This document shows, in pieces, positions 45,773-63,503 of a DNA stretch of 64,000 nucleotides (the stretch's first letter is position 1; each line of letters begins with the position of its first letter). The DNA is taken from positions 76,366 to 140,365 of the forward strand of contig CAZKPX010000003.1 of NCBI GenBank assembly GCA_964554805.1. The letters are read 5' to 3'. The notes beneath the pieces were generated by a model. That model worked only from the letters and a program-made list of their open reading frames with translations. It searched no databases and was not told where the DNA came from. Source of the stretch: an uncultured Candidatus Saccharibacteria bacterium. GTDB taxonomy: Bacteria; Patescibacteriota; CAZHWT01. The position numbers and the translations under genes were made by a program.

Positions 45773-45809
45773 GCTTGCCCGCTAGATAGGTATGCTTTAT
45801 CATAGATAC

Positions 45810-47429
45810 ATGAAGCGATCCCGGATTGGCTTGGTTGTGGTTGGTAGTTTGATTTTGAATACTATGCTTATGCTCCAACCTGCTGGAATACAGGAGGTTG
45901 AGGCGGCGTTTTCTGGGTATAACGGGAGAATAGCTTTTGAGACTAATCGTGACGGCAATAGTGAAATATATATGATGAATGAGGATGGCTCAGATCCTAG
46001 GAGGCTAACGAATAACTCATCGATGGATACTGCTCCAACATGGTCTCCGGATGGGAGCAAGATAGCGTTTGTCTCTAACCGAGATGGTAGTAACGAAATT
46101 TATGTAATGGATTCTGATGGGAGTAATCAGCAGAGGCTGACCAGTGATGCATATAGCAATAGTTCTCCTTCTTGGTCTCCAAGCGGGGATAGGGTAGCTT
46201 TTACTTCAAATGCCGAAGGCGGTAGTCAGATTTTTACTATTGATACTAATGGGAATGGGCGCAGTCAGATTACAAGTGGTCCTGCAAGTAAATACAATAT
46301 CTCGTGGCATCCAGGCGGGCAGTCATTAATTTATCAAGGATCTCTCGCAGGTAATAATGACGTATGGACTGTGAGTATAGGCGATAGTCTTGAAGAGAAT
46401 ATTACCAATACTCCCAGCTCAGGTGAGCAGATTCCTAGATGGAGTCCTGATGGACAAAGAATTGTATTTACTTCCAACAGGGATGGGAATAATGAAATAT
46501 ACACAATGAACGCAGATGGAGGTGATTGGGTTCGTATTACGAATGATCCAGCAAATGATAACGGTGCTTACTGGTCCCCTGATGGAAATAAGATTGTATA
46601 TCACACTGATATCCCAAACCTTAATCTTGATAAGAACATCGTAGTCAGCAATTCTAGTGGTACTACAAAGGAAATTACAACAACTAATCCCACCAACGAC
46701 TTAAATCCTCAATGGCAACCCATCCCCAATACCTCACCAGTCCTAGCTGCTGCGGCCCTATCTGTTCAATCTGGCTCTGCTCAGAGTGTTGATGTTTTAA
46801 CGGGTGCGACTGATGAGGAGGCCCTGGAGGCTGCCAATGTAAGCCTTGTCAGTCAACCTGCCTATGGCACGGCTGGTGTTGAGTTGGGCAAGGTTGTGTA
46901 CACTGCTAGCACCGCCTATGTCGGTTCGGATAGTCTGCAATACCAGGTCTGCGATTCGTTTATGCTGGATCAGAAATGTTCGACTCAAACACTTGGCATT
47001 ACAGTGACTCCTTGGTTGAGTTTGAAGGAAGTCGGTACTGTCGCGACTGATGGTTCGGGTAAAGTCATCTCCCCTTCTAGCAAGCCAACCTTTTCTGGCT
47101 ATACGACTCCCCTGGCTGAAGTGAAAGTTGAAATTCATTCAGATCCAATCATTCTGACTACTCAGGCTAATGGCGATGGCTACTGGTCTGTTACCCCTAC
47201 CTCTCCTCTACCCTCAGGCGATCATACTGTTTATATCTCCTCAACACTCAATGGTCAGACAACCCAGCTAGATTCGTTTGTCTTGAGTGTTCAGACAACG
47301 ACCCCTAATACTGGTGCCGATTACACTCTTGTGCGAGGGGTGGGGGCGGGTCTGGTTGGTCTAGGGGCTCTCATCTTAGCCGCAGCATTAAGACGCCGAG
47401 GGCCTAAGGTGTCCCCTCTATCTCTATAA
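45810..47429 (+). CDS. Paralogous secreted PD40/TolB-like beta-propeller surface protein with TPNTG C-terminal sorting signal
   Basis: Same architecture as 44153-45772. The C-terminal 150 aa are near-identical (FSGYTTPLAEVKVEIHSDPIILTT...LNGQTTQLDSFVL). Start set at MKRSRIG. Confidence 0.6.
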   Translation: MKRSRIGLVVVGSLILNTMLMLQPAGIQEVEAAFSGYNGRIAFETNRDGNSEIYMMNEDGSDPRRLTNNSSMDTAPTWSPDGSKIAFVSNRDGSNEIYVMDSDGSNQQRLTSDAYSNSSPSWSPSGDRVAFTSNAEGGSQIFTIDTNGNGRSQITSGPASKYNISWHPGGQSLIYQGSLAGNNDVWTVSIGDSLEENITNTPSSGEQIPRWSPDGQRIVFTSNRDGNNEIYTMNADGGDWVRITNDPANDNGAYWSPDGNKIVYHTDIPNLNLDKNIVVSNSSGTTKEITTTNPTNDLNPQWQPIPNTSPVLAAAALSVQSGSAQSVDVLTGATDEEALEAANVSLVSQPAYGTAGVELGKVVYTASTAYVGSDSLQYQVCDSFMLDQKCSTQTLGITVTPWLSLKEVGTVATDGSGKVISPSSKPTFSGYTTPLAEVKVEIHSDPIILTTQANGDGYWSVTPTSPLPSGDHTVYISSTLNGQTTQLDSFVLSVQTTTPNTGADYTLVRGVGAGLVGLGALILAAALRRRGPKVSPLSL

Positions 47430-47584
47430 TACTCAGCCTATAATATCGCTATTATGATAGTAATAATTCAGGGTTGAACCCTGAGGTTAGCTTTTGTGTC
47501 GTTTTAGGTAATGGCAAATTCAGCCTATGATGAGTTCAGGCTGGCTTGACTCATGCCTGCCTGTTTGGGTAGAATGAGGCATAG

Positions 47585-50053
47585 ATGCGGTTATTTTTGA
47601 ATTCATTTGATATTGGCCATTTTGGTACCAGGCAGTTTCTGGTGGCTGTTTTGCTTAGCCTTATGATGGTGAGTGGTTTGCTGGCTTTGCCGGTTGCTCA
47701 AGCGGACTACTCTACTCCGGACGCGACTTTGAAATGGAGCACTTTGGATGTCCCGGGGGGAGATGTGTCTCGAGCCTGGTCAACAGCTGCCTCTTCGGCA
47801 GATGGTTCGGTTTTGCTCGTTGGTTATAATGGCGCTTACTCCATGCATCGCTCGATTGATAGTGGTCTAACCTGGACGGAGGTTGGACCGGCTGTCACTT
47901 ATGGCACCTTTCCTTGGCGCAGCTTTGCCATGTCGGCTGATGGTCAGGTAATGCTGGCGGGTGATGCGTATCGCCTGTACCTCTCTTCTGATATGGGCGA
48001 TAATTGGACTGAGGCAAGACCGGTTGGAGATGTCAATCTTCATTGGGGGAATGTAGCCATGTCGGCTGATGGCCAGGTAATGTTGGCAAGCGTTAATGAT
48101 GTCGGTGGCCGGTTGTATTATTCGACTAACCAAGGCCAGGACTGGCAAGAAGTTCAGCCGGCTGGTGATGTTGATCGATACTGGCGAGGTTTGGCTGTGT
48201 CAGCTGATGGCCAGGTGATGCTGGCTGGCGCCTCGGGCGGTCGGTTGTATCGGTCGGTTGACGGCGGGGACAGTTGGGTTGAGATGCAGCCAGCGGGTAA
48301 CGTTAATAGATTTTGGTTGACTACCTCTATGTCGGCTGATGGTCAGGTAATGTTGGCTGGGTCTGTAGCCGCCACAGGTCGGTTGTATCGGTCGGTTAAC
48401 GGCGGGGATAGTTGGGTTGAGATGCAGCCAGCAGGTGACGTTAATGTTAGCTGGTGTCGCAGTCGGGTATCTGCCAATGGTCAATCTATGCATATAAGCT
48501 ATGGTTGTGACAGTGGTGGGGGTCGGTTGTATCGGTCGGTTGATAGTGGAGGTAGTTGGCTCGAGATGACTCCGATCGATGGTGGCGCTTATATGTGGAT
48601 GGCTATAGCCGCTAGCGATGATCAGCAGACAATAATAGCTGGTGTGTCTTTTGGTCATGTATATCTTTCGCATAATAGTGGCCAAACCTGGTTGAAGATC
48701 AGGCCATATGGCCAGCATGGTAATGACTGGAGATCCTTGGCAGTATCTGACAATGCCCGGGTGCTATTTGCCGGCTCAACTGGTGGCGGTGGCAGTGGGC
48801 GACTCTATCGTTCTATTGATAGAGGCGTTGCGTGGGCTGAGGTTCGGCCGGCTGGTGACGTTGGTGCAAATTGGAGTGATGTAGCATTGTCGGCTGATGG
48901 TCAAACTGTACTGGCTGTTGCATCGGGCAAAAGACTATATCGATCACAGGATGGCGGCAATAGCTGGGCGGAAGTGCGTCCAATAGGTAATGTTGACGCT
49001 GCTTGGTGGCGTGCAGCTATGTCAGCTGACGGGCAGATTTTGTTTGCCAGTGTTTCTGGTGGTCGACTATATCGCTCGCTGGATGGAGGTGATTCGTGGA
49101 CTGAAATTCAGCCGGCCGGTAATGCTAACTATGCGTGGCAGCAACTGGCGACTTCGACAGATGGCCAGGTTGTTTTTGCAGGTGTCTTTGCCGGACGCAT
49201 TTATAAAAGTGGTAATACGGGAGATAGCTGGACTGAAGTTCAGCCGGCCGGTGATGTTAATATTTACTGGGTAGATCAAGGAGTGAGTTTGTCGGCTGAT
49301 GGTCAGCGTGTTTTTGCTGTAGGTGGCGGTCACGTGTATCGCTCTGTGGATGGTGGCAATGTATGGGCTGAAGTGCAGCTGTCGGGTACCTGGTGGTCGA
49401 CTGTATCGCAATCCAGGGATGGGCTGCGGGTACTCTTGGGGTCGTTTCCGGGGCGATTGTATGGCTCGACAGATGGAGGTGACAATTGGTCTGAAGTAAC
49501 GCCAATAGGTGATAAATTGGGGCTCTGGCAGCTAGTCCGACTGGCCTCGGATGGTAAGAAGATAGTTGCGGCGGCCAGCATGGGGCGGGTTTATTTGGGC
49601 ACTTTGACGCCGACGGCCCCTGGCTTGACTATAGCGGCCAATACGGTATTTGATCCCACTCAGTCTGCCTCAAGTACCGCTTTGACCGGCACAGCGCCGG
49701 TTGGAGCGACCGTGGAGGTTGAAGTGCACTCGACGCCACAATCCGGGGTGGTGACGGCTGACGGGAGTGGCCATTGGTCATGGTCTCCGCCGCTGCCGCT
49801 GGAGCCGGGAAGCCATCAGTACAGAGCTCGGATTTTGGATGACGATATTGAGGGCGATTGGAGCGATTGGGTGAGTTTTCAGGTTCTAGGAGTGACGGAT
49901 TCCGGTGATGAGTCATCTATCCCCAATACCGGAGTAGACTATTGGTGGTGGAGAGTTGGCGGTTTACTTGTGTTTGCGGCTGGCTTGAGCTTGCTTGGGT
50001 ATGTTCGCAAGTATAGGCGCTTTCCTTTGGTGCCGGACCTGTTCCCACGGTAG
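47585..50053 (+). CDS. Secreted BNR/Asp-box-repeat (Ycf48/sialidase-like beta-propeller) surface protein with IPNTG C-terminal sorting signal
   Basis: About 14 repeats of (R)LY(R)SxDGGxSW(T/A)E spaced roughly 45 aa apart. Signal peptide with AQA. C-terminus SSIPNTGVDYWWWRVGGLLVFAAGLSLLGYVRKYRRFPLVPDLFPR. Confidence 0.65.
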   Translation: MRLFLNSFDIGHFGTRQFLVAVLLSLMMVSGLLALPVAQADYSTPDATLKWSTLDVPGGDVSRAWSTAASSADGSVLLVGYNGAYSMHRSIDSGLTWTEVGPAVTYGTFPWRSFAMSADGQVMLAGDAYRLYLSSDMGDNWTEARPVGDVNLHWGNVAMSADGQVMLASVNDVGGRLYYSTNQGQDWQEVQPAGDVDRYWRGLAVSADGQVMLAGASGGRLYRSVDGGDSWVEMQPAGNVNRFWLTTSMSADGQVMLAGSVAATGRLYRSVNGGDSWVEMQPAGDVNVSWCRSRVSANGQSMHISYGCDSGGGRLYRSVDSGGSWLEMTPIDGGAYMWMAIAASDDQQTIIAGVSFGHVYLSHNSGQTWLKIRPYGQHGNDWRSLAVSDNARVLFAGSTGGGGSGRLYRSIDRGVAWAEVRPAGDVGANWSDVALSADGQTVLAVASGKRLYRSQDGGNSWAEVRPIGNVDAAWWRAAMSADGQILFASVSGGRLYRSLDGGDSWTEIQPAGNANYAWQQLATSTDGQVVFAGVFAGRIYKSGNTGDSWTEVQPAGDVNIYWVDQGVSLSADGQRVFAVGGGHVYRSVDGGNVWAEVQLSGTWWSTVSQSRDGLRVLLGSFPGRLYGSTDGGDNWSEVTPIGDKLGLWQLVRLASDGKKIVAAASMGRVYLGTLTPTAPGLTIAANTVFDPTQSASSTALTGTAPVGATVEVEVHSTPQSGVVTADGSGHWSWSPPLPLEPGSHQYRARILDDDIEGDWSDWVSFQVLGVTDSGDESSIPNTGVDYWWWRVGGLLVFAAGLSLLGYVRKYRRFPLVPDLFPR

Positions 50054-53257: not shown

Positions 53258-54757
53258 TTAGAGCATGGGTAATGGTTTGGTCGAAGCGTTTCTGGCCATT
53301 TGATGATAAGCTTGATTGTCTATTTGTGGTGGCGACCAGTCTACCAGCTCCTGAGGAGAAATCGGTCTGCCAAGCCAAGCAGTAGCCTGTTCTTGGTCAT
53401 GCAGCAGTTCGTAGGCTTGACCATTTTTGAATACAATCATAGGTAGGCCAAAGAACTGGGCTGTTTCGGCTATGTTTTGCATGGTTATGGACCTCAGATT
53501 ATCCCGTTCGGCTAATCCGCGTTGCCAGAGGATATCGGTCATGGCGATAGACTGGTCTTGATTTAGGTTAACCATAGGAGCTTGGTCGAGATTGACAAAA
53601 GTCGCTGCAACCCGTGTTTGGCTGACTATGACTTCGTTGTATCTCTGTTTTGATCCCTGGGCTAGAGCTGCTGATAGTCTCTGCTGATATTCTTCAACTG
53701 ACCCAACACTGGTCGTCCTTCGATTCTCTTGGGTGGCTTGACTGCCTTTGTCGAAAGCGGCTGCATCCTCGATTGTTCCGCTGTTGAGAACCAGGCCGAA
53801 ATTATCCCACAGCTGAATCCGACTGTCGCCCGAACCTGGTCGGAAGGTTGAGGCGCAGATAGAAGGGTTTTGGGTCAAGAGGTAGGCTATTCTTTCCTGG
53901 TAGCTACTTTGATTATTGATATTCTGGTTGTTGCCGAAACCAATATCGAATTCTGGTTTGACTGCATGGACTATATAGTGACCGTTGGCTAGAACAAGAG
54001 ACTCCAGGCTGCCGTGAGCCTGTTTGTACTCTTCAAGCTGATGGCGGTTGTATTGTTTTTTCTGATCGACTTTCCAACCAAGCGCAATCTGTTGATAGTA
54101 TTGGTCGAGATAGGCTTGGCTATCAGCGTAAAATGATTGCTGGTTAGCTTTAATTCTCTGTAATTCTTCATGATAGTAGGCGGTTCTATACAATTCTTGC
54201 TTGATGCCCGCTTGATGTTCTAGGGTGCTGGCTTGTTTTTGTGATTCGGCCAGGGCTTGCCGGTGTTCTTCGATAGGAAAATTACGGAACTTGTCCATTA
54301 TCCGCTTGACCAGGCTGGTTTCATGGTCTTGAATGAGATTGCTGATCTCGGCGGCTTGCTGCTCATATGCCAGCTTTTCGTTTCGGATAGTCTCCAGAGT
54401 ATCTCTATCCTGTTGTGACTGGCTCTGTATGCTCTGCTCGCGCCTGCGATCTTGAGCTCTGTCTCTGCGCATCGTTTGCAGCCTTTGGGCTACGTCATTA
54501 CGAGAAACTGGGCCAGCATAGACGCCTTGGTACAGGCTATCCTGCTCTTTAGAGAACTGGCGCAGCTGGTTTTTGGAAGGTTTAGGGATAGAATGTTGCG
54601 ATTCGCGATTCATGATGAAGTAAGTGCGTTTTAAGTTTAGCATGCCAACCGAGTCGGAGTCAGTTGTTGCTGTGCTTTTTGACAGACTGATATAAATTTG
54701 GGTAGTTATGACCTGCTTCTTTGTTGCCAAGTAGGGGCAACAGAAGTACAATGACAC
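53258..54757 (-). CDS. Hypothetical Gln-rich protein
   Basis: Long ORF with coiled-coil-like Q/E/R-rich middle section. No motif recognised. Start probably at an internal Met (MLNLKRTYF or MNRESQH). Confidence 0.35.
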   Translation of the reverse strand: MSLYFCCPYLATKKQVITTQIYISLSKSTATTDSDSVGMLNLKRTYFIMNRESQHSIPKPSKNQLRQFSKEQDSLYQGVYAGPVSRNDVAQRLQTMRRDRAQDRRREQSIQSQSQQDRDTLETIRNEKLAYEQQAAEISNLIQDHETSLVKRIMDKFRNFPIEEHRQALAESQKQASTLEHQAGIKQELYRTAYYHEELQRIKANQQSFYADSQAYLDQYYQQIALGWKVDQKKQYNRHQLEEYKQAHGSLESLVLANGHYIVHAVKPEFDIGFGNNQNINNQSSYQERIAYLLTQNPSICASTFRPGSGDSRIQLWDNFGLVLNSGTIEDAAAFDKGSQATQENRRTTSVGSVEEYQQRLSAALAQGSKQRYNEVIVSQTRVAATFVNLDQAPMVNLNQDQSIAMTDILWQRGLAERDNLRSITMQNIAETAQFFGLPMIVFKNGQAYELLHDQEQATAWLGRPISPQELVDWSPPQIDNQAYHQMARNASTKPLPML

Positions 54758-54848: not shown

Positions 54849-57491
54849 ATGTCTGCCCTTTCTTATTTAATCCATCTTCCGCAGTGGTGGTATATCGATC
54901 GTACAAAATGGTGGTCTCGATTTGCCAGCCGTAGCTTGCTGCTGCTATCAGATAGGCTGGCTGTTGCTCCGCAATTTCAAGCCCTATTTGCCCCCTATCA
55001 CAATGACACAACTATCGTCGGCCGATCCATTGGTTTTGCCATGAGATTGTTATGGTTGGTGTTGGGAGTAGTTGTTTTGTTGGCTGCAGTGTTGGTTTTA
55101 GTGGTTGGTTTTAGTGGTTGGTTGTTGATGCCAATTGGACTGATTTGGGGTGTGATTTGGGGCCAGTGGTGGTTGCTATTGGGGCTGCTTGCTACTTCGG
55201 CTAGCTTGGCTGTCTATTGGTTTGGCTATGCCTTGCAACCAAAGTACATCTTAGCGGATCTGATTAATCCTGAGACTAATCAGTTTGATTTGCCGGTGGC
55301 TCAGGATTTGCGTGAGTATGCTTCAGGGGCAGCGCGGTCTATTTTGAAAGATTTGCCGCCACAGTTCTCGACAGGAATTATAATGCGAGCCTTGGCTAAT
55401 GATGCTGATGTTTTGCGGTTGTGTAAGCGCATGGAACTGTCTGACCAGCCATTGCTTGCTCGAATTAGCCAGCAGTCATCGCGCCAAAGCCAGGTGGTGT
55501 CGGAACAAGTCTTTATTGGGCAGGCTATTCAGCGCGGCCTAGATCATCACCACCGTCATTTAACCACTTCTGATCTATTTTTGGCCTTGATCGCCAGCAG
55601 TGATTTGATGCAAAAGATCTTGTCTGAGCTGGGCGTTCAGTTGGATGAGTTGGATAAGGCGGTAGCTTGGGTGGAGGCTGAGCAGCGTCAGCGGGGACGT
55701 TGGAAGTGGTGGACAGATGAGCATTTCCGTCGCTTGGGCGGTGTTGATCGAGGTTGGGTTAGTGGCTGGACGCCCACGGCTCGCCGTTTTTCTCTTGATA
55801 TCACCAATGAAGTATCGTCGGGGCGTGTGCCGTATATTATTGGTCGAGACAAAGAGATTGGTCAGGTGATGCGGATACTGGAACGCTCAACCAAGAGTAA
55901 TGTGCTGTTATTGGGAGAGCCCGGTGTGGGCAAGAGCTCGATAGTGGATGGTATTGCGCAGGCTATTTTGCAAGCTCAGGTATCCCCTGCTCTGGCTGAG
56001 TCGAGGGTTATTGAATTGGATGTGACTGGCATGTTGTCGAGCATTGGTGCGGGTCAAGATTTTCAAACGGTTTTTAGTAAGGTTTTACAAGAATTGACTG
56101 CTGCCAGAACAATTTTGTTTATCGATGCTATCGAGCACCTAGTGGATCAAAGCGGTTTGGGAACGGTTAATGCCAGCGCGGTTTTGGAGCCATTTTTGGA
56201 ATCCGGTCAGTTAAAGGTAGTGGGCTCAACGACCTTGGCTGCCTATCATCGCATCTTGCAGCCCCAGGCTGCTTTGGCCCAACATTTTCAACCCGTGGCA
56301 ATCGAAGAGCCGTCAGTTGAGGCTGCTACGGCCATTGTTCAGGAATTTGCCGCTACTATTGAGCAGGACCAGAAGGTTCAGATTAGCCTGCCCGCTATCT
56401 CGGCCACAGTTGAATTGGCTCAGCGCTATATTCATGATCGAGTTCTGCCTGAAAAAGCTATTGATTTGTTGGATGAGGTGGCTGCGGAGGTAAGTCGAAA
56501 CAAAAAAGATCAGGTGACAGCTGAAGATGTGGCGCGGGTGGTGTCGGACAAGACAGGTATTCCAGTCGATACCGTGACCGAGTCTGAGGCAGCCAAACTG
56601 AATAATTTGGAGGAGTTGTTGCAAAAGCGGGTGGTTGGTCAGGAAGAGGCGGTGGAGGCAGTGGCCAATGCTTTGCGTCGTTCTCGGGCTGGTCTCGCTG
56701 ATGAGTCAAAGCCGATTGCGGTATTGATGTTTGTCGGTCCAACCGGGACTGGTAAAACAGAATTGGCCAAAACGGTAGCTGAGAGTTATTTTGGATCGGA
56801 ATCGGCTATGATTCGACTGGACATGAGCGAATATCAGACGGCTGACAGTTTGCATAAGCTAATCGGTCCTCCACCCGGCCAAGCGGATTTTGAGCTAGGC
56901 GGGCAATTGACTACAGCTATTCAGGATAATCCATACACTGTTCTGCTGCTGGACGAGCTAGAGAAGGCCAATCCACGTATTTTGGACGTTTTTTTGCAGG
57001 TATTTGATGATGGTCATTTGACTGACAGCGCCGGTAGGCGGACTTTGTTTAACCACACAGTTATTATTTGTACCTCTAATGCCGGATCCCGGTCGATTCA
57101 ATCGGCTCTGCAGCAAGGGTATACTTTGCAACAAATGGCGCCGGCTATTAAAGAGATGTTGGCTCAAAAATATTTCCGTCCCGAGTTCTTGAATCGGTTT
57201 GATGATGTTGTTGTCTTTAAGCCGTTGGCCGAGAGTCAGATATTGCAGATAACACGCAAGATGATCCAAGAGGTAATATCTGGGCTGGCTGCGAAAAATA
57301 TTACGGTTACCATTAGCGATGACTTGGTGGCCGCTATTGCCAAGGCTGGCTATGATCCGCTGTATGGAGCTCGGCCATTGCGACATGTTATTCAGGATAA
57401 GCTGGAAAATGCGCTGGCCAAACAGCTGCTGTCCGGTGAAGTCAAGGCGGGCTCGGTGGTGGAACTAAATACTTCGAATGTGTCTGTTTGA
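54849..57491 (+). CDS. Clp/Hsp100-family double-ring AAA+ ATPase with an N-terminal transmembrane segment and no long M-domain
   Basis: Two Clp_N-like repeats. NBD1 Walker A LLGEPGVGKSSIV. NBD2 Walker A FVGPTGTGKTELAK. Sensor-2 GARPLRHVIQ. Residues 60-130 are strongly hydrophobic (2-3 TM). No IGF/LGF tripeptide seen. Confidence 0.7.
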   Translation: MSALSYLIHLPQWWYIDRTKWWSRFASRSLLLLSDRLAVAPQFQALFAPYHNDTTIVGRSIGFAMRLLWLVLGVVVLLAAVLVLVVGFSGWLLMPIGLIWGVIWGQWWLLLGLLATSASLAVYWFGYALQPKYILADLINPETNQFDLPVAQDLREYASGAARSILKDLPPQFSTGIIMRALANDADVLRLCKRMELSDQPLLARISQQSSRQSQVVSEQVFIGQAIQRGLDHHHRHLTTSDLFLALIASSDLMQKILSELGVQLDELDKAVAWVEAEQRQRGRWKWWTDEHFRRLGGVDRGWVSGWTPTARRFSLDITNEVSSGRVPYIIGRDKEIGQVMRILERSTKSNVLLLGEPGVGKSSIVDGIAQAILQAQVSPALAESRVIELDVTGMLSSIGAGQDFQTVFSKVLQELTAARTILFIDAIEHLVDQSGLGTVNASAVLEPFLESGQLKVVGSTTLAAYHRILQPQAALAQHFQPVAIEEPSVEAATAIVQEFAATIEQDQKVQISLPAISATVELAQRYIHDRVLPEKAIDLLDEVAAEVSRNKKDQVTAEDVARVVSDKTGIPVDTVTESEAAKLNNLEELLQKRVVGQEEAVEAVANALRRSRAGLADESKPIAVLMFVGPTGTGKTELAKTVAESYFGSESAMIRLDMSEYQTADSLHKLIGPPPGQADFELGGQLTTAIQDNPYTVLLLDELEKANPRILDVFLQVFDDGHLTDSAGRRTLFNHTVIICTSNAGSRSIQSALQQGYTLQQMAPAIKEMLAQKYFRPEFLNRFDDVVVFKPLAESQILQITRKMIQEVISGLAAKNITVTISDDLVAAIAKAGYDPLYGARPLRHVIQDKLENALAKQLLSGEVKAGSVVELNTSNVSV

Positions 57492-57497
57492 GGCTGA

Positions 57498-58391
57498 TTG
57501 GATATGGTAAGGTCATCTAGTTTTGATATTCACCAAGAGCTAGGCTCATATGGCTTGGAAGACCAGGCTTGGGCCAACGAGTTGCCGGAGGCGATACGGG
57601 AGTTGTATGACCCAACCTGGGCTGGATTGCAAGCTGAGGAGGATAGTTATAACTACGATGATTTGCGAGTAATCCTGGATAATATACGGCGAGGCTTGGG
57701 TTATGGCATCTATAGCCAAGCCAAGCCAGATCAATCAGATGAGATTTACCAGAAAATAGATAGGTTGGAGCAGGCTTTGCTTGAGGCTGAGCAGGAGTCG
57801 CTAGGTGGTTTGGATGAGCTGGGGATACATATGAGCTATCAGCATAGCAATTGTCAGGAATTTGGGATTGATAGTCGTTTTCTAGGTTCACCGCAAAGAG
57901 CTGAATTGGCCTGGTTGAGGTATTTTGTTGGCCAGACAAGTGCTAATTATCAGCTGACTATGCAGCTTTTGATGGATATTTATCAGCTGGACAATCCGAC
58001 CTTTACTGATGATATAAAGCAAAAAATGATAGATCGGGGCTATGATAAACCGCAATTTAGCTTATATGGCCGACAGGCAGCCGTGGATTTTTTGGATGAG
58101 CAGGGCTTTGGTAGCGGGGATATTCAGGGTAACTTTTTGATTAATTTTAATCTGCCCAAGCCATTGGGTAGAATGTGGTATCGGGGTGGTAGTGAAGATC
58201 CTTCGTATGAGATACCGGAAGATTCTATTGCTTGGGGATATTTTTATAGAAATTGTATGTCGGCTATGTATAGTGCCCAGTATTCGGCTGAGAGGCAAGG
58301 GTATTTCTTTGATAGAATTAATGCCATGGGTCAGCATGACTGGAGGCAGTATTATTATTTGTACGTATTGATTGGCAGGGCTCAATCTTGA
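57498..58391 (+). CDS. Hypothetical protein, 7 nt downstream of the Clp-like gene
   Basis: 297 aa, Tyr/Gln/Asp-rich, no motif recognised. Confidence 0.35.
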   Translation: MDMVRSSSFDIHQELGSYGLEDQAWANELPEAIRELYDPTWAGLQAEEDSYNYDDLRVILDNIRRGLGYGIYSQAKPDQSDEIYQKIDRLEQALLEAEQESLGGLDELGIHMSYQHSNCQEFGIDSRFLGSPQRAELAWLRYFVGQTSANYQLTMQLLMDIYQLDNPTFTDDIKQKMIDRGYDKPQFSLYGRQAAVDFLDEQGFGSGDIQGNFLINFNLPKPLGRMWYRGGSEDPSYEIPEDSIAWGYFYRNCMSAMYSAQYSAERQGYFFDRINAMGQHDWRQYYYLYVLIGRAQS

Positions 58392-58559
58392 TCGCTGGTC
58401 GGGAGGGGTTGTTTTTCCCAGTAGCGGTTGCTGGCTTCTCTCTAGTGTTGTATGCTGTAGTTATCATTAGATAGTTCCTGTTCTTGGTGTATGCTGCCTT
58501 CCTTCTCCCGACTACCTTTTAGTTTAATTTCCCTGCCCGATTCAAAGCATATGCGCTAC

Positions 58560-58570
58560 GGGGGGGGGGG
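58560..58570 (+). repeat. G11 homopolymeric tract in the translation-initiation region of the giant Cys-repeat protein
   Basis: atgcgctac followed by 11 G, then tgcttctcggcc. The ATG at 58551 is in frame 0, the long ORF in frame 1. One additional G, or a loss of two G, would fuse the ATG to the ORF. Confidence 0.8.
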
Positions 58571-61500
58571 TGCTTCTCGGCCTGGTTTTTCTTGGACTGC
58601 TTGGTTTTGTCTGGTTGTCTAGTGTGTCTCCGACTATTTCTCTGACTAAAACTGTTTTTCTGGCTTCGGAGTCTGTAACGGCTGTGATGGCCCATGCCTC
58701 TGCTGATAGACTGAAGGCTGAGGTGGTGACCAGTGATGGGGATAAGACGGGCCTGGCGGTTGAGGTGACGGCCTCTGGCTCGGATGCTCTGTTGACGATT
58801 CCGGCTTTGCGGGCGTTGACCCCGGGTGGGTATGTGCTAAAGGTGACGGATGCTGCTGGCCGCCAGTATAGTCAGGATTTCTCTTGGGGTGTTTTGGCGC
58901 TCAATATGACCAAGTCGGTGTATGCTTCCGGAGAGACGGTTGAGGTGCAGATGGCGGTTTTGAATCAGCGCGGGGCGATGGTGTGTGATGCTGAGGTCAG
59001 GCTGGTTATTACCTCGCCGACCGGCAAGAGTCAAACGCTTTCGACAACCGAGGATCGCATAAAGGTTAATCCATCCTGCACAGTTAAAGATTTTACTGAG
59101 GAGCCTGATTATGAGGCTTCGTTTGAGGTGGCGGAGCCGGGGCGCTATGATTTGAAGTTGACGGCGGTGACGGCTGATGATTCATTTACCATTACTGATA
59201 CTTTGACGGTTCAGCAGCCAGTTGCCGATCCGCTGATTATTACCCGACAGTCGGCCACCCGCATTTATCCGGTTAATACCTATCCGGTTCATATGACGGT
59301 GACAACCACTGAGGATTTTAACGGAACTATTACCGAGACAGTCCCCTACTCTTTTGAGATTTCACCATTGGAGGAGACTGTCTCTTATTCGTACGAACAG
59401 TTTAACCGTAAGGGCGCAGTTAACGAACAATACAAGCAGCTGCACTGGCAGGATGTGTCACTAAAAAAAGGTCAGTCTATAACCCTAGGCTACCAGTATG
59501 ACGCGCCCAATGAGTCGCCTAATTTCTTTCTAGCCGGACCACTGAGTGCTACCACCTCCGACCTCCAATCTCCTGCCTCCTATTTCACCGAACCCCGCTC
59601 CTGGCAAATAGCCGTCGACGCTGTGCTGACGGCTATTGAGCAGCAGATTACTATTACGAATCAAGCCTACCAAACCAACTCCCAATCCCCTGCGCCGACG
59701 GATAATTCATTGGGGTTGGTGCAGTGGGATGAAGCTGCTTATTCTAATGCGGAGGTGTATTTGGAGGCTAGGCTTGGACAGCAGCAGTCCGCTCCTTATA
59801 TGGGGGATATAACCAGTCATGCGACCATGGATTGTCCAGCGGCTGATGATTGTAAGATTGCTTATTATGATGCTGTGGGAGGAGATCTGCGATTTAGGGA
59901 TTGTGACGATGCTGTCTGCTCGACTGGAACGATAGTACTGCTTGATGGTAATGTGGGGTGCGTCATGGCCAATTGTTCCACCATAGCCAATGTGGGGCAG
60001 TTTGCTTCTATAGATTGTCCAGCGGCTGATGATTGTAAGATTGCTTATTATGATACAACCAATCAGGATTTGCGCTTTATTGATTGCAATGATGGGACTT
60101 GCTCGACGGGGACTAATGCATTGCTGGACGGTCGGGCAGGGTGTGTGTTGACTGGGTGTGCCGCTTCGGGGGATAGGGGGGCTGGCGTTTCTATCGACTG
60201 CGTTGCCTCTAGTGACTGCAAGATAGCTTACCAGGATACAACCTCAACGGCGCTGCGTTTTGCTGACTGTAATACAGCTGGCTGTAGTTCGGGTGTGGTG
60301 TCGTTGTTGGATGGTGTTGCTGGGTGTGTGTTGACTGGGTGTGCCACACTTGGTTCAAGTGGCCAGTATCAGTCGATTCGTTGTCTGGCCACAGATGACT
60401 GTAAGATTGCTTACTATAGCGCAACCCTTCAGCATCTCCGCTTTGCCGATTGTGATACCGCCAACTGTAGTGCTGGTACGGTGGTAGAAATAGATGGATC
60501 TGCAGGATGTGTGTTGGAAGGATGTTTGACTAACAATATTGGAATGTATGTTTCGATGGATTGTTTGGCTACCGATGACTGTAAGATTGCTTATTATGAT
60601 ACTACTGGATCTGATCTGAGATTTGCTGATTGTGATACTGCAACCTGTTCTTCCGGCTTTTCGACATTGATTGATGGAGGGGCTGGATGTGTTCTTTCGG
60701 GATGCGTAAACACAAATACCCTGGGTCGGTATCCAGATATCAGCTGTGTTGCTAGTGACGATTGCAAGATCAGCTATGGTCATTATAGTAGCTTCTTGTT
60801 TACTTATAGCACGCTACTATTTGCTGACTGCGATACTTCCAGTTGCTCGTCTGGCTCTGTCTCAATTTTGGATAATCGAGGATCGTGCGTTTTGACCGGG
60901 TGCAATCCCAGCACCACAGGCTCGCAGGCAACTAATAGTTCGATCATCTGTATGGCTAGCGATGATTGCAAAGTGAGTTACACTAACCCCCACTTCGACA
61001 GTCTCCATTTTGCTGACTGTAGCGCGGCTAATTGCTCATCCGGACAGACGACTTTGGTGGATGGAGCATATAAGCCATTCATGCTCGGGCGACCAAGTAT
61101 GAGCTGCCCCCAGTCGGATAACTGCAAGATTATTTACCTTACGAATTCAAAAAGGGACGGCTCAGAGCGCTTGCTGAAATTTAAGGATTGTGATGATGTT
61201 CAATGTGATACTGGAACAATCGTGGTTCTGGACGGTGCAATGAGTTGCATGTTAGATAATTGTTCTGATAGCCGGAGAGTTGGTCAGAATATGTCTTTAG
61301 ACTGTCCTAGCTCTGCTAATTGCAAAATTACTTACTATGATGAGACTAACATGGAATTACGATTTGTCAATTGTAACGGTGAGGTTTGTGGGGCAGGAGC
61401 GACAATCTTGATTGACGGTGGCCCTGACTGCGCCTTGGCTAATTGTGTGTCTGGTCAAGATATTGGTGATTTCCCTGCGCTTGATTGCCCGACTGCAGAT

Positions 61501-63447
61501 AACTGCAAGGTTGCTTATTATCAGCGAACACCTAACGGCGGTCTACGTTTTGCCGATTGTGACAATGCTGACTGTTCGGCTGGCACAGTTAGTGTGTTGG
61601 ATGGGCAAGCTGCTTGTGCATTAACCGGCTGCCTTGCTGTAAGATCTCCTGGTGCTTTCAAATCTATATCTTGTCCTGCTGCAGACGATTGCAAGATTGC
61701 ATACCATAGCAATAATGATTCTGCTCTCTATTTTGCCGACTGCGACGATGAGGCTTGCTCGAGCGGTACAGTGGCTCTGCTGGATGGTGCTGCATCCTGT
61801 TCTCTCAGTGACTGCACTGAGTCTTTGGATGTAAGAGAGGCTATTTCTATGGATTGCCTGGTGAGTGACGATTGTAAGATTGCCTACCATGATTATGGCA
61901 ATAGTGATTTGCGTTTTATTGATTGCAACAACGCAACTTGCTCTATTGGATCATCTACCTTATTGGATGGTAGGTCGGGCTGTGTTTTAACAGGCTGTAA
62001 TCCTAGTGGATCAAACGGTCTTTCACACTCTATTAGTTGCTTGTCTACAGATGATTGTAAAATTAGCTACTACAGCACAACGAGCCAACATCTGCGTTTT
62101 GCTGATTGTAATAATGCTGATTGTTCTACAGGTACGGTTAGTTTGTTAGATGGGTTCGCAAACTGTACGCTTTCAGGCTGCTCATCATCAAATGATGGCC
62201 AATTTTCTTCGGCCTTAGATTGTTCGCTAGCGACTGATTGTAAGATTGCCTATACTTCAAGTACTGTGTTGCGCTTTGCTGACTGCGACAGTGCGGGTTG
62301 CACTTCCGGGTCGATGGCAACTGCAGATCGGGGCTACCCACTTTCTTGGCTCCAGCTTTATTCTACAGCTGGAGTGGCGATTCCGGATGCTATCGTCAGC
62401 AAGGAAATTACTATAAGTGGCTTGACTGCTAGCGAGCCCCCGATGCGCTTAAAGAGTCATAGCTTAAGCTTGACTGACGCGACTGCTTATACTGTTAGAG
62501 CCTGGACATCGACTCCGGGCTTAACAACCGCTATTCACTCCGCCAAACTAATCGTCAAGCAAAATAACGGTGGTGGGATTACGGCTACGCAGACTATGGT
62601 GGAGGTGGGGGCGCATCAGGTGCAGACGGGGACGAATGGGTGGGGAATGTTGGATTCGCCTAAGATGTATTATTATAATCCGGCTAATTTTTCGGGAACG
62701 GTAGCGGTTTATTTTGAGGCTACTTTGGGGGCGGCAGTCTCTAATTCTTACGCGGCTTTGTCCAGTGATCCAACCTGCGCCAGCCGAGTGGCTGGGTCGG
62801 AGGTCAGTTATTCGACTATGGACTTTGCCTGGGTGTTACGGCGGTCATCGGCTTTAACCTTGCCAGCAGGACAATATCATGTCTGCATGAGCGGAGCAGG
62901 AGTGGCCAATGGAGTGGCCAATGCTAAGCTGATTATTGCTACGACTGGATCTTTGGACAAAACGCAAACGGTTCAACAATTGGTTGTTGCAGCGACTGAA
63001 GATAATGATGCTGCTTACACCCCGCACTCTAATTTGGTCTATCTGGATAAATCTAATTATGCCGGAGATGATTCGTACTATTATCTGGAATCGGTTATGA
63101 AAACATCTTCTGGCACCGGATCGGTTCAGCTCTATAATGAATCCGATTCCGCTATTGTTGATGATTCAGAGTTGACGACTACCTCAAGTGTTTTTGAAAG
63201 AGTCTTCAGTCAGGACCTGGAGGCTGATTTAGCAACCGCCAAGAATTATCAGCTACGACTCAAGGGTGGGTCTAGCAACACAGTCTCCGTGTCCTCAGCC
63301 TGGCTGGTAGTGCAGGTCAGTCTTAATGGAGCTTACCAGGAAGGCTCTTTGCCGCCGCCAGTGACTGGGCCCTCAATGAGTCAGCTGATGAAGAATGGTT
63401 TGTGGTGGAAGGACGGGGTTAAGCAGCCGTATTGGTTGGGGGAGTGA
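58570..63447 (+). CDS. Giant secreted/anchored protein: N-terminal signal/TM, Ig-like region, 14 tandem ~60 aa six-cysteine repeats, C-terminal roughly 350 aa domain
   Basis: Repeat consensus DCxxxDDCKIAYYDxxxxDLRFADCDxAxCSxGTxxLLDGxAGCVLTGC. Start drawn at GTG 58570, which depends on the G-tract state. Confidence 0.6.
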   Translation: MLLGLVFLGLLGFVWLSSVSPTISLTKTVFLASESVTAVMAHASADRLKAEVVTSDGDKTGLAVEVTASGSDALLTIPALRALTPGGYVLKVTDAAGRQYSQDFSWGVLALNMTKSVYASGETVEVQMAVLNQRGAMVCDAEVRLVITSPTGKSQTLSTTEDRIKVNPSCTVKDFTEEPDYEASFEVAEPGRYDLKLTAVTADDSFTITDTLTVQQPVADPLIITRQSATRIYPVNTYPVHMTVTTTEDFNGTITETVPYSFEISPLEETVSYSYEQFNRKGAVNEQYKQLHWQDVSLKKGQSITLGYQYDAPNESPNFFLAGPLSATTSDLQSPASYFTEPRSWQIAVDAVLTAIEQQITITNQAYQTNSQSPAPTDNSLGLVQWDEAAYSNAEVYLEARLGQQQSAPYMGDITSHATMDCPAADDCKIAYYDAVGGDLRFRDCDDAVCSTGTIVLLDGNVGCVMANCSTIANVGQFASIDCPAADDCKIAYYDTTNQDLRFIDCNDGTCSTGTNALLDGRAGCVLTGCAASGDRGAGVSIDCVASSDCKIAYQDTTSTALRFADCNTAGCSSGVVSLLDGVAGCVLTGCATLGSSGQYQSIRCLATDDCKIAYYSATLQHLRFADCDTANCSAGTVVEIDGSAGCVLEGCLTNNIGMYVSMDCLATDDCKIAYYDTTGSDLRFADCDTATCSSGFSTLIDGGAGCVLSGCVNTNTLGRYPDISCVASDDCKISYGHYSSFLFTYSTLLFADCDTSSCSSGSVSILDNRGSCVLTGCNPSTTGSQATNSSIICMASDDCKVSYTNPHFDSLHFADCSAANCSSGQTTLVDGAYKPFMLGRPSMSCPQSDNCKIIYLTNSKRDGSERLLKFKDCDDVQCDTGTIVVLDGAMSCMLDNCSDSRRVGQNMSLDCPSSANCKITYYDETNMELRFVNCNGEVCGAGATILIDGGPDCALANCVSGQDIGDFPALDCPTADNCKVAYYQRTPNGGLRFADCDNADCSAGTVSVLDGQAACALTGCLAVRSPGAFKSISCPAADDCKIAYHSNNDSALYFADCDDEACSSGTVALLDGAASCSLSDCTESLDVREAISMDCLVSDDCKIAYHDYGNSDLRFIDCNNATCSIGSSTLLDGRSGCVLTGCNPSGSNGLSHSISCLSTDDCKISYYSTTSQHLRFADCNNADCSTGTVSLLDGFANCTLSGCSSSNDGQFSSALDCSLATDCKIAYTSSTVLRFADCDSAGCTSGSMATADRGYPLSWLQLYSTAGVAIPDAIVSKEITISGLTASEPPMRLKSHSLSLTDATAYTVRAWTSTPGLTTAIHSAKLIVKQNNGGGITATQTMVEVGAHQVQTGTNGWGMLDSPKMYYYNPANFSGTVAVYFEATLGAAVSNSYAALSSDPTCASRVAGSEVSYSTMDFAWVLRRSSALTLPAGQYHVCMSGAGVANGVANAKLIIATTGSLDKTQTVQQLVVAATEDNDAAYTPHSNLVYLDKSNYAGDDSYYYLESVMKTSSGTGSVQLYNESDSAIVDDSELTTTSSVFERVFSQDLEADLATAKNYQLRLKGGSSNTVSVSSAWLVVQVSLNGAYQEGSLPPPVTGPSMSQLMKNGLWWKDGVKQPYWLGE

Positions 63448-63503
63448 GGGGGAGTGAGGGGAGTGAGTGAACAGTGAACAGTGAACAGTGAGGAGTGAGT
63501 GGC
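63440..63503. repeat. Purine-rich (GTGAGGGGA / GTGAACAG)n tract after the stop codon
   Basis: gggggagtgagggggagtgaggggagtgagtgaacagtgaacagtgaacagtgaggagtgagtgg. Confidence 0.75.

What the first reader, a model, noticed from the sequence alone, without database searches (positions are those of the whole stretch)
59827..62340. Fourteen tandem ~60 aa six-cysteine repeats (DCxxxDDCKIAYYD...LRFADCDxAxCSxGT..LLDGxAGCVLTGC) in a 1625 aa secreted protein: an unrecognised Cys-rich repeat module
Reading the translation shows a highly regular repeat: DC-P/L/V-x-x-DDCKIAY-Y/H-D-x4-DLRFADC-D/N-x-A-x-CS-x-GT-x-x-LLDG-x-AGCVLTGC-x7-13-SI. It occurs 14 times back-to-back. Each unit has 6 Cys at fixed spacing, implying three disulfides per unit.

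Some units are identical at the nucleotide level over more than 40 nt (gattgtccagcggctgatgattgtaagattgcttattatgat at 59830 and 60009). This implies recent unit duplication and potential for copy-number variation by recombination.

I do not recognise this as any named repeat (not EGF, YD, BNR, PKD, TSP or Dictyostelium-type). The unit is flanked by an N-terminal Ig-like region and a 350 aa C-terminal domain. Together with the poly-G tract, this looks like a variable adhesin or host-interaction protein.
Basis: seen in the sequence. Interest (0 to 1): 0.65.

Follow-up and report, generated by a model that had tools for sequence, protein, structure and literature searches.

The report
Disulfide-stapled double beta-propeller surface protein
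The fourteen cysteine-rich repeats are real, but they are the blades of two ordinary seven-bladed beta-propeller rings in a large secreted protein of a probable Patescibacteria (candidate phyla radiation) bacterium, most likely a binding module, and they belong to a large protein family that has no name yet.

Summary
ORF 58570-63447 (+) encodes a 1625-aa protein with 14 tandem ~61-aa units (aa 411-1259, nt 59800-62346). Twelve units have six Cys; units 7 and 14 have four.

The units are not independent Cys-knot beads. AlphaFold2 folds units 1-7 into a closed ring of 28 strands, 7 blades of 4 strands (pLDDT 91.9, pTM 0.92). The best PDB matches are seven-bladed lectins (PHL/PLL, TM 0.72-0.78, 6-10% identity). 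In relatives, unit counts cluster at 7, 14 and 21.

Across 1331 units in relatives, cysteines appear and disappear in pairs (C1/C2, C3/C4, C5/C6). This argues for three local loop-stapling disulfides per blade. The family forms a 2-Cys, 4-Cys, 6-Cys series.

The family is large: 4020 clusters at 50% identity. It has no Pfam or NCBIfam model, and only distant members score on BNR_4.

At DNA level the units are old (52% nt identity), so recent duplication or free copy-number variation is not supported.

The two propellers sit inside a split jelly-roll domain. Partner domains in relatives are pilin N-termini, M23 peptidase, LamG, ricin-type lectin and GT2 synthase. These point to a surface binding or adhesion role; the ligand is unknown.

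This is a new variant of a known fold, of moderate interest.

The parts
58570..63447 (+). Whole gene: 1625-aa secreted or anchored multidomain protein (GTG start, stop included)
   Evidence: ORF list. An identical protein is present in NCBI without a name.
58560..58570 (+). Poly-G tract (G11) overlapping the GTG start. An upstream ATG at 58551 is out of frame by one base.
   Evidence: It is the only G/C run of 8 or more bases, or A/T run of 10 or more, in the window. With G10 the ATG would read MRYGGGVLLGLVF..., which has a better signal-peptide n-region.
58570..58629 (+). N-terminal hydrophobic segment (aa 1-20): signal peptide or signal anchor
   Evidence: Kyte-Doolittle maximum of 2.26 at aa 1-19. 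It is the only strongly hydrophobic N-terminal segment, and homologues also start with a basic stretch followed by a hydrophobic stretch.
58642..59604 (+). N-terminal beta-rich 'stalk' module (aa ~25-345). It is shared with more than 60 giant Patescibacteria surface proteins, many of which carry an M23 peptidase.
   Evidence: phmmer mapping of hits to q25-355. Sub-threshold Pfam hits to MG2, WxLIP_HBD and GBS104-like Ig. P0003 is the same module with an M23 domain inserted.
59605..59799 (+). N-terminal half of split jelly-roll domain 1 (aa 346-410)
   Evidence: A jackhmmer profile of the C-terminal region matches aa 346-435 with the N-half of jelly-roll 2 (28 bits). The same match occurs in more than 15 homologues, up to 69 bits.
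59800..61086 (+). Beta-propeller 1: blades 1-7 (aa 411-839). Strand blocks are aa 419-459, 475-520, 536-581, 597-642, 659-702, 718-769 and 790-831.
   Evidence: AF2 model m78c8c486b408: pLDDT 91.9, pTM 0.92, 28 strands. Foldseek top hits are seven-bladed lectins.
61087..62346 (+). Beta-propeller 2: blades 8-14 (aa 840-1259). It follows propeller 1 after a 7-residue linker.
   Evidence: It aligns in register with propeller 1 (48% identity, alignment A2). Blade 14 is truncated at the same point as blade 7. Family unit counts are 7, 14 and 21. It was not modelled separately.
62347..62559 (+). C-terminal half of split jelly-roll domain 1 (aa 1260-1330)
   Evidence: It aligns collinearly with the C-half of jelly-roll 3, weakly (z ~3). 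In P0015 each propeller interrupts its own copy of this domain at the same point.
62560..63339 (+). Jelly-roll beta-sandwich domains 2 and 3 (aa 1331-1463 and 1464-1590)
   Evidence: AF2 model m0795687a6134: pLDDT 80.7, and 82-96 per 10-residue block across nearly all of both domains. Weak Foldseek similarity to CBM-like and jelly-roll domains: SGBP-B 7kwb, the Vip3A C-terminus, XepA and GH101.
63340..63444 (+). 35-aa C-terminal tail, low-confidence structure, no sorting motif recognised
   Evidence: pLDDT below 50. It lacks the VPE + TM + basic tail seen in some homologues.

Best explanation
The 14 repeats are the 14 blades of two tandem seven-bladed beta-propellers (aa 411-839 and 840-1259).

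Each ~61-aa unit is a four-stranded antiparallel blade:
- strand A, 'xxSID'
- strand B, 'KIAYYD'
- strand C, 'LRFADC'
- strand D, 'TxxLLDG'

The six cysteines form three sequence-local pairs. C1-x5-C2 brackets the A-B turn. C3-x4-C4 closes the C-D loop. C5-x4-C6 closes a small loop inside the long D-to-next-A connection. Most likely each pair is a disulfide that staples a loop of an exported protein.

The pair of propellers is inserted into a loop of a jelly-roll sandwich domain. Two more copies of that domain follow. The whole assembly sits on an N-terminal beta-rich stalk behind a signal or anchor helix.

Inferred function: a rigid, pseudo-symmetric, multivalent binding module on the cell surface of a probable Patescibacteria (CPR) cell. 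The ligand is contacted by the variable top-face loops, meaning the B-C loops and the C5-C6-stapled D-A loops. It is most plausibly a repetitive surface glycan or cell-wall polymer of a partner cell or of the cell itself.

What is shown: the repeat, the fold, the seven-blade modularity, the paired gain and loss of cysteines, and the domain architecture.

What is inferred: the disulfide chemistry, surface exposure, binding function and ligand class.

My sub-confidences: fold ~0.9; local disulfide pairs ~0.65; binding or adhesion role ~0.55; glycan ligand ~0.35.
For: Fold:
- The AF2 model of units 1-7 has pLDDT 91.9 and pTM 0.92, with exactly 28 strands.
- It superposes globally on seven-bladed lectins PHL, PLL and CV39L (E 1e-11 to 1e-7, TM by target 0.72-0.78).

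Modularity, independent of the model:
- A unit-HMM counts 7, 14 or 21 units in relatives. The modes are 7 (59 proteins) and 14 (20 proteins) among 168 proteins.
- Blades 7 and 14 are both truncated after strand D.
- In P0015 the two sets of 7 blades are separated by a sandwich domain.

Cysteine pairing, over 1331 units:
- C1/C2: both present 600, only one 17, none 714.
- C3/C4: both 1309, one 8, none 14.
- C5/C6: both 172, one 55, none 1104.
- This gives 2-Cys, 4-Cys and 6-Cys classes.

Export: an N-terminal hydrophobic helix is present here and in the homologues.

Variable positions lie in the B-C loop and after C6 (consensus).

Binding role, from domain partners of the same propeller in relatives:
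- type IV prepilin N-termini (GFTLIEL)
- M23 peptidase, LamG/ConA-like domains and membrane GT2 synthase
- ricin-B lectin and SLH
- CBM6
- jelly-roll/CBM-like neighbours in this protein

Split host domain.
Against:
- The DSSP register (A 9-14, B 17-24, C 29-35) would place C2 (C18) directly opposite C3 (C35) across strands B and C, and C1 and C2 diagonal to each other. A C2-C3 cross-strand bond therefore cannot be excluded on geometry.
- The PLL/PHL sugar sites depend on Trp (PMC5584973), and the repeat region has no Trp at all. The lectin analogy is therefore fold-level only.
- No ligand, localisation or expression data exist.
- The gene may be out of phase at its poly-G start.
- Many Patescibacteria are anaerobes without an obvious disulfide-forming system. 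I did not look for one.
- Giving AF2 exactly seven units could favour ring closure. The 7/14/21 counts are the independent support.
Confidence: 0.7

Rival explanations
1. Beads-on-a-string. Each ~60-aa unit is an autonomous three-disulfide mini-domain, like EGF or LDLa. The array can expand and contract by recombination, giving a length-variable adhesin.
For: - Cys spacing is regular, with 6 Cys per unit.
- Units 1 and 2 share a 42-nt exact DNA identity.
- Some homologues show lineage-specific homogenised blades, for example P0016 propeller 2 at 70% and P0005 at 59% within-protein identity.
Against: - The model is a closed propeller of high confidence.
- Unit numbers are 7, 14 or 21 in relatives.
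- Homologous blades work with only two Cys.
- Units here are 52% identical at nt level, and conserved residues use the same codon only 44% of the time.
- Tandem Repeats Finder does not detect the array.
Confidence: 0.04
2. Catalytic propeller. The domain is a sialidase-like, GH- or PL-like glycan-cleaving enzyme rather than a binding module.
For: - Foldseek also hits pseudaminidase/neuraminidase, GH43, GH74 and PL25 propellers.
- Distant family members score on Pfam BNR_4 of the sialidase clan.
- GH74 enzymes are also tandem 7+7 propellers.
Against: - Those hits are weaker (TM 0.35-0.54) than the lectin hits.
- The window protein has no BNR_4 hit at E <= 1.
- It cannot carry an Asp-box (SxDxGxTW), because the repeat region contains no Trp.
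- All blades share one consensus and no blade-specific conserved polar residues stand out. That pattern is typical of binding propellers rather than of single-active-site enzymes.
Confidence: 0.08
3. Metal- or redox-active cysteines. The CX4-5C pairs bind metal ions (Zn or Fe, with knuckle-like A-B and C-D turns on the same face), or act as redox-active thiols, rather than forming structural disulfides.
For: - There are two CXnC motifs on neighbouring hairpin ends of each blade.
- Weak chance-level matches to ferredoxin and zinc-finger-type profiles appear (E 0.01).
- The host lineage is probably anaerobic.
Against: - Most family members have only the C3-C4 pair, which cannot build a Cys4 site.
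- Pairs are gained and lost independently of each other.
- The spacing is CX4C/CX5C, not the CX2C of classical knuckles.
- The protein has an export signal.
- There are no conserved His residues.
Confidence: 0.05
4. Structural coat. The protein is a passive envelope or S-layer-like scaffold with no specific ligand. The propellers serve only as rigid spacers.
For: - It is a large beta-rich multidomain secreted protein.
- Relatives include one with an SLH domain and some with PEP-CTERM-like anchors.
- Neighbouring genes encode other propeller and Ig surface proteins.
Against: - The same propeller is displayed on pilin N-termini and combined with lectin-type and enzyme domains. That suggests a targeting module.
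- Its most variable residues sit in loops on one face.
Confidence: 0.13

Closest known systems
PLL/PHL family of seven-bladed beta-propeller lectins from Photorhabdus (PDB 6fhx, 5mxg, 8q83) and CV39L (6gxs)
   Same: - They are the best structural matches: E down to 2.6e-11, TM 0.72-0.78 on the target, full-length superposition.
- They have seven four-stranded blades with high internal sequence symmetry.
- They are extracellular and multivalent, with sites between blades (PMC5584973).
   Different: - Sequence identity is 6-10%, with no sequence-level hit.
- Their sugar sites use paired Trp residues, whereas this repeat region has zero Trp.
- They have no intrablade disulfides. PHL has one inter-subunit bond.
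- Their blades are ~48 aa, against 61 aa here.
- They are stand-alone 40-kDa proteins, whereas this is a nested domain pair in a 1625-aa protein.
Unnamed '2-Cys' propeller family (GxYxSLALDxxGxPxISYYDxTNGDLKxxxCxxxxCxxxxxxxVD), e.g. P0228, P0176 and P0198, seen in Chloroflexi, Actinobacteria and Patescibacteria
   Same: - It is clearly homologous: the A2 profile gives E 1e-44 to 1e-56.
- It has the same strand pattern, the same C3-x4-C4 loop and the same seven-blade modules.
   Different: - It lacks C1/C2; the A-B turn is 'LDxxGxP'.
- It lacks the C5-C6 loop insertion; its D-A connection is the short 'DxxGxVG'.
Pfam PF15892 BNR_4 / sialidase (Asp-box) clan propellers
   Same: - Distant relatives of the repeat accumulate score on one blade of the BNR_4 profile. 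P0228 scores 41 bits against a cutoff of 27.3, and precomputed hits appear.
- Foldseek finds sialidase, pseudaminidase and GH74 propellers.
   Different: - The window protein does not hit BNR_4 even at E <= 1.
- It has no Asp-box and no Trp.
- It has seven blades with a uniform consensus.
Plasmodium CyRPA (cysteine-rich protective antigen)
   Same: It is a beta-propeller stabilised by disulfides and used in a host-cell invasion complex (abstracts of PMC5349852 and PMC5349848, listed). That its disulfides lie within blades is from my own recollection.
   Different: - It is eukaryotic.
- It has six blades.
- It has about one disulfide per blade (from my recollection, not checked here).
- Homology was not tested, so this is an analogy only.
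Repetitive propellers amplified from single blades (Pereira & Lupas 2022, PMC9218822)
   Same: - Blades share one consensus.
- Some relatives have near-identical blades, for example P0016 propeller 2 at 70%.
- Copy number is fixed by ring closure.
   Different: The window protein's own blades are only 48% identical, below that paper's 60% criterion, so this is an old and differentiated amplification.

Membership tests
Beta-propeller fold (seven-bladed) | Closed toroid of seven four-stranded antiparallel blades | tested here: met
   The AF2 model has 28 strands, pLDDT 91.9 and pTM 0.92. It superposes globally on seven-bladed propellers. Family unit counts are 7, 14 and 21.
Autonomous Cys-rich mini-domain repeats (EGF/LDLa-like) | Each unit folds on its own around its disulfides, and copy number is unconstrained | tested here: not met
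   Units are blades of one ring. Homologous blades have only 2 Cys. Counts come in multiples of seven.
PLL/PHL propeller lectins | Sequence homology to the W-motif repeat | tested here: not met
   There are no PDB sequence hits with the single sequence or the profile. Identity in the structural alignment is 6-10%.
PLL/PHL propeller lectins | Conserved Trp pair forming the fucose site between blades | tested here: not met
   The repeat region aa 421-1259 contains 0% Trp. The site description is from PMC5584973.
Pfam BNR_4 (PF15892) / Asp-box propellers | Score at or above the Pfam gathering threshold | tested here: not met
   There is no BNR_4 hit for the window protein at E <= 1. Distant relatives such as P0228 do pass on summed score.
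Pfam BNR_4 (PF15892) / Asp-box propellers | Asp-box motif SxDxGxTW in the blades | tested here: not met
   The motif requires Trp, and there is none in the repeat region. It is absent from the unit consensus.
WD40, Kelch, YWTD, NHL, PQQ, FG-GAP/VCBS, PD40, RCC1 propellers | Match to the family's Pfam repeat model | tested here: not met
   Pfam-A at E <= 1 returns only MG2, WxLIP_HBD, GBS104 Ig and SRF-TF, none of them in the repeat. NCBIfam returns nothing.
Unnamed C3-x4-C4 propeller superfamily (2-, 4- and 6-Cys classes) | Significant profile match over seven blades, with a conserved C-x4-C after strand C | tested here: met
   The A2 profile finds 4020 clusters at E <= 1e-3 and 394 at E <= 1e-30. 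The C3/C4 pair is present in 1309 of 1331 units.
Disulfide-stapled blades (three local S-S per blade) | Cys pairs within bonding distance and oxidised | not testable with these tools
   Coordinates were not returned. The only evidence is indirect, from pairwise co-occurrence of the cysteines. The DSSP register leaves a C2-C3 alternative open.
Phase-variable contingency gene | Homopolymer length polymorphism that switches the reading frame | not testable with these tools
   A G11 tract sits at the start with an out-of-frame ATG. No reads or close strains are available; the cluster has one member.

The most novel reading that the evidence does not exclude
The six-Cys blade defines a Patescibacteria-centred lineage of triple-disulfide-stapled propellers. 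Its extended, stapled top-face loops would be a diversifying host-recognition surface. The module would be deployed on pilins, M23 wall hydrolases and giant surface proteins. In this gene it would be switched on and off by the poly-G tract at the start codon. That would make it a host-range determinant of episymbiotic ultrasmall bacteria.
Probability: 0.15. Interest if true: 0.6.

Novelty: new variant of a known kind. Interest (0 to 1): 0.35.

Why it matters
- It resolves an apparently unknown cysteine-rich repeat into a familiar fold.
- It shows that a large propeller superfamily, about 4000 clusters at 50% identity, still lacks any family model. Thousands of surface proteins of Patescibacteria, Chloroflexi and Actinobacteria therefore remain unannotated in this region.
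- The 2-Cys, 4-Cys, 6-Cys series is a clean natural example of stepwise addition of loop-stapling cysteine pairs to a repeat fold.
- The module's fusion partners (pilins, M23 peptidases, polysaccharide synthases) make it a candidate cell-cell or glycan recognition element in episymbiotic bacteria, whose host-attachment molecules are largely unknown.
- The practical value is a family definition and a testable binding hypothesis. It does not reveal a new principle.

Tried and rejected
Searches that gave nothing for the repeat:
- Pfam-A and NCBIfam on the whole protein gave no hit in the repeat.
- PDB sequence searches gave only chance-level titin and ferredoxin matches, using the protein, a propeller profile and a 2-Cys relative.
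- Tandem Repeats Finder on the DNA did not detect the array.

Tools or collections that were unavailable or empty:
- With the protein as query it found only two distant loci in the collection of one genome per species, and not this genome. Strain-level copy-number comparison was therefore impossible.
- The look-up of encoding contigs has no record for the window protein.

Analyses with negative results:
- Blade-by-blade orthology to homologues is not recoverable. The best partners are always the most consensus-like blades.
- Synteny is not conserved. The contexts of P0003 and P0011 share only 'other giant surface or glycan genes'.
- Literature searches found no description of this repeat.

Ideas considered and rejected:
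- A sortase LPXTG motif in the tail 'LPPPVTG': no following TM or basic tail.
- A 14-bladed single ring: units 1-7 close on their own, and relatives have single sets of 7.
Full report
**Observation.** The window carries a 4878-nt ORF at 58570..63447 (+), with a GTG start, encoding 1625 aa. A motif scan finds C-x5-C-K-[IV] fourteen times at a 52-68 residue period between aa 422 and 1224. The protein has 84 Cys, and 80 of them lie in this region. Cutting the array into units and aligning them gives the consensus GxxxSIDCxAxDDCKIAYYxxTxxxLRFADCDxAxCSxGTxxLLDGxAxCVLxGCxxxxxx. Ten columns are invariant over all 14 units. Twelve units have six Cys. Units 7 and 14 end just after strand 'LxDG' and have four.

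**DNA-level age of the repeats.** The units are on average 48% identical in protein (maximum 66%) and 52% identical in DNA (maximum 65%). Where two units have the same amino acid they use the same codon only 44% of the time, which means synonymous sites are saturated. Tandem Repeats Finder does not see the array. The repeat finder reports 60-70% identity families. The 42-nt patch between units 1 and 2 is the only long exact match. It is best read as a local gene-conversion tract within an otherwise old array.

**What the unit is.** Pfam-A, NCBIfam and PDB sequence searches give nothing for the repeat. A search of 5.8 billion proteins returns about a hundred relatives. The named ones come mostly from Patescibacteria: Amesbacteria, Curtissbacteria, Levybacteria, Kerfeldbacteria and 'Patescibacteria group'. 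The identical protein is in NCBI without a name.

An HMM of the unit counts 7, 14 or 21 units in nearly all of these relatives. Over 168 family proteins the modes are 7 (59 proteins) and 14 (20 proteins). A shoulder at 6 is probably due to missed blades.

More distant relatives carry the same unit without the first and last Cys pairs. Their consensus is GxYxSLALDxxGxPxISYYDxTNGDLKxxxCxxxxCxxxxxxxVD, a four-strand blade pattern.

I aligned 29 seven-unit segments (A2) and predicted aa 411-839. The result has pLDDT 91.9, pTM 0.92 and exactly 28 strands in seven groups of four. Foldseek against the PDB superposes the whole model on seven-bladed propeller lectins:
- PHL, PLL2-5 and CV39L, with E 2.6e-11 to 1e-7, TM 0.72-0.78 normalised to the target, and 6-10% identity.
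- Weaker matches follow to pseudaminidase and neuraminidase, GH43, GH74 and PL25 propellers.

Each 'repeat' is thus one blade, and the protein has two tandem seven-bladed propellers. Blades 7 and 14 lack the last Cys loop because the chain leaves the ring there.

**The cysteines.** On the model's secondary structure the cysteines sit as follows:
- C1 and C2 flank the tight A-B turn.
- C3 ends strand C and C4 lies in the C-D loop.
- C5 and C6 lie in the long connection from strand D to strand A of the next blade.

Across 1331 units from family members the cysteines come and go in pairs:
- C1/C2: both present 600, only one 17, none 714.
- C3/C4: both 1309, one 8, none 14.
- C5/C6: both 172, one 55, none 1104.

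This divides the proteins into 2-Cys (94 proteins), 4-Cys (48) and 6-Cys (23) classes. The window protein belongs to the most elaborate class. Paired gain and loss is what three local disulfides (C1-C2, C3-C4, C5-C6) predict.

I could not measure distances, because no coordinates are returned. A regular hairpin register would put C2 opposite C3 across strands B and C. An alternative pairing is therefore not excluded on geometry, although the 2-Cys relatives, which have C3 and C4 only, argue against it.

By the canonical propeller topology (my inference from established knowledge), the A-B and C-D loops lie on one face, and the B-C and D-A loops lie on the other. The positions with no consensus are concentrated in the B-C loop and after C6. 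The C5-C6 staple therefore holds an extended, variable loop on the presumptive binding face.

**Family size and name.** The A2 profile, scored against 1.84 billion representatives, finds 4020 clusters at E <= 1e-3, 2145 at E <= 1e-10 and 394 at E <= 1e-30. Neither the window protein nor typical 2-Cys members have a dedicated Pfam or NCBIfam model. The 2-Cys members only accumulate partial matches to one blade of PF15892 BNR_4. P0228, for example, scores 41 bits against a 27.3 cutoff, with no single stretch significant. The window protein does not reach BNR_4 at E <= 1. It cannot carry an Asp-box or the Trp-based PLL sugar sites, because the repeat region has no tryptophan (site description from PMC5584973). 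The repeat is therefore an unnamed, Cys-enriched lineage of a known fold, probably on the sialidase/Asp-box side of propeller space.

**Surrounding architecture.** Mapping the hits onto the query shows an N-terminal module (aa ~25-355) shared with more than 60 giant Patescibacteria proteins. Many of these carry an M23 peptidase. P0003 has the same architecture as the window protein, with M23 inserted. Pfam gives only sub-threshold Ig-like hits there.

A jackhmmer profile of the C-terminal region matches, in this protein and in more than 15 homologues, the segment just upstream of the propeller (aa 346-435) with the N-terminal half of the second C-terminal domain. The segment just after the propellers aligns collinearly, though weakly, with the C-terminal half. 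In P0015 each propeller interrupts its own copy of that domain. The propeller pair is therefore an insertion in a split domain.

AF2 of aa 1328-1625 gives pLDDT 80.7, and 82-96 per 10-residue block across nearly all of the two domains. It shows two beta-sandwiches and a disordered tail. Foldseek similarity is weak and points to jelly-roll or CBM-like domains: SGBP-B, the Vip3A C-terminus, XepA and GH101 modules.

The N-terminus is a hydrophobic helix, and homologues have a basic stretch followed by a hydrophobic stretch at their N-termini.

**Function.** No experiment exists, so the argument rests on association. In relatives the same propeller is fused to:
- type IV prepilin N-termini with the GFTLIEL cleavage motif
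- M23 peptidoglycan hydrolases, LamG/ConA-like and neurotoxin-receptor-binding-like lectin domains, and membrane GT2 polysaccharide synthases
- ricin-B lectin and SLH domains
- CBM6

Neighbours of homologous genes are other giant surface proteins and glycan-active enzymes, without conserved synteny. In the window, the gene lies downstream of a ClpB-like ATPase and a PBP1. It also lies near three other propeller/Ig surface proteins, on an ordinary chromosomal stretch carrying DnaB, HtrA, CtpA and a histidine kinase.

The most economical reading is a rigid, multivalent binding module displayed on the cell surface, probably for a repetitive glycan or wall polymer. A catalytic role, a metal or redox role for the cysteines, and a purely structural role are less likely rivals. 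They are listed with the tests that would decide them.

**Evolution of the array.** Blade-wise orthology with homologues is not recoverable. In the window protein, within-protein blade identity (47%) barely exceeds between-protein identity (44-46%). Some relatives show clear homogenisation or re-amplification: P0005 at 59%, and P0016 propeller 2 at 70%. Blades at equivalent positions of the two propellers are slightly more alike than average (0.50 against 0.47). That fits duplication of a whole seven-blade ring. This matches the general picture of propellers amplified from single blades under a ring-closure constraint (PMC9218822). It argues against free copy-number variation.

**Verdict.** The sequence observation is correct. 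The interpretation as a new kind of Cys-rich module and as a copy-number-variable array is not. The feature is a double seven-bladed beta-propeller with up to three loop-stapling Cys pairs per blade. It belongs to a large, unannotated propeller family. Novelty: a new variant of a known kind. Interest: moderate to low (0.35).

Noticed in passing
window 58551-58572: A G11 homopolymer (58560-58570) sits directly at the gene start. The ATG at 58551 is one base out of frame. With G10 it would give MRYGGGVLLGLVF..., a more canonical signal peptide. This is either a slipped-strand phase switch or a homopolymer assembly error. It is the only G/C run of 8 or more bases, or A/T run of 10 or more, in the 64 kb.
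   Followed up: partly
window 63438-63498: Short tandem repeats lie immediately at and after the stop codon of the gene: GGGGGAGTGA x3 and AGTGAAC x3.7. Their function is unknown.
   Followed up: no
homologues P0012, P0015, P0020, P0036, P0126, P0132 (C-termini): Several relatives end with 'VPE', then a hydrophobic helix, then an Arg/Lys-rich tail. This resembles a PEP-CTERM or exosortase-type sorting signal. The window protein and its closest relatives lack it.
   Followed up: no
homologues P0127, P0255, P0291, P0294: In these relatives the seven-bladed Cys propeller is fused directly to type IV prepilin N-termini (K/R-G-FT[LI]IEL). P0127 is from Candidatus Curtissbacteria; the source organisms of the others are not named. 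They are candidate pilus-displayed adhesins.
   Followed up: partly
homologues P0012-P0017, P0022, P0036: These ~2200-aa proteins combine N-terminal HTH/transposase-like domains, a membrane GT2 (cellulose or PNAG-synthase-like) domain and extracellular double propellers with jelly-rolls. This is an unusual synthase-plus-propeller fusion.
   Followed up: partly
window 44153-50053: Three consecutive genes encode other surface propeller proteins: two PD40 propellers with Big_9/Big_13 Ig domains, and one Sortilin-Vps10/BNR protein with Big_13. This is a local cluster of propeller surface proteins upstream of the finding.
   Followed up: no
window 54849-57491: A ClpB/ClpC-like double AAA+ ATPase has an N-terminal extension of ~150 aa that appears to contain several hydrophobic, membrane-like segments. 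This is unusual for Clp/Hsp100 unfoldases.
   Followed up: no
window 57498-58391 and 53258-54757(-): The 297-aa ORF directly upstream of the finding and a 499-aa ORF on the minus strand have no Pfam match.
   Followed up: no
homologues P0005 and P0016: Lineage-specific blade homogenisation is visible. P0005 carries the same 'CGTEDCSTSSAGDGS' insertion in the C3-C4 loop of most blades. P0016 propeller 2 has blades 70% identical to one another. These are examples of recent re-amplification or concerted evolution within the family.
   Followed up: partly
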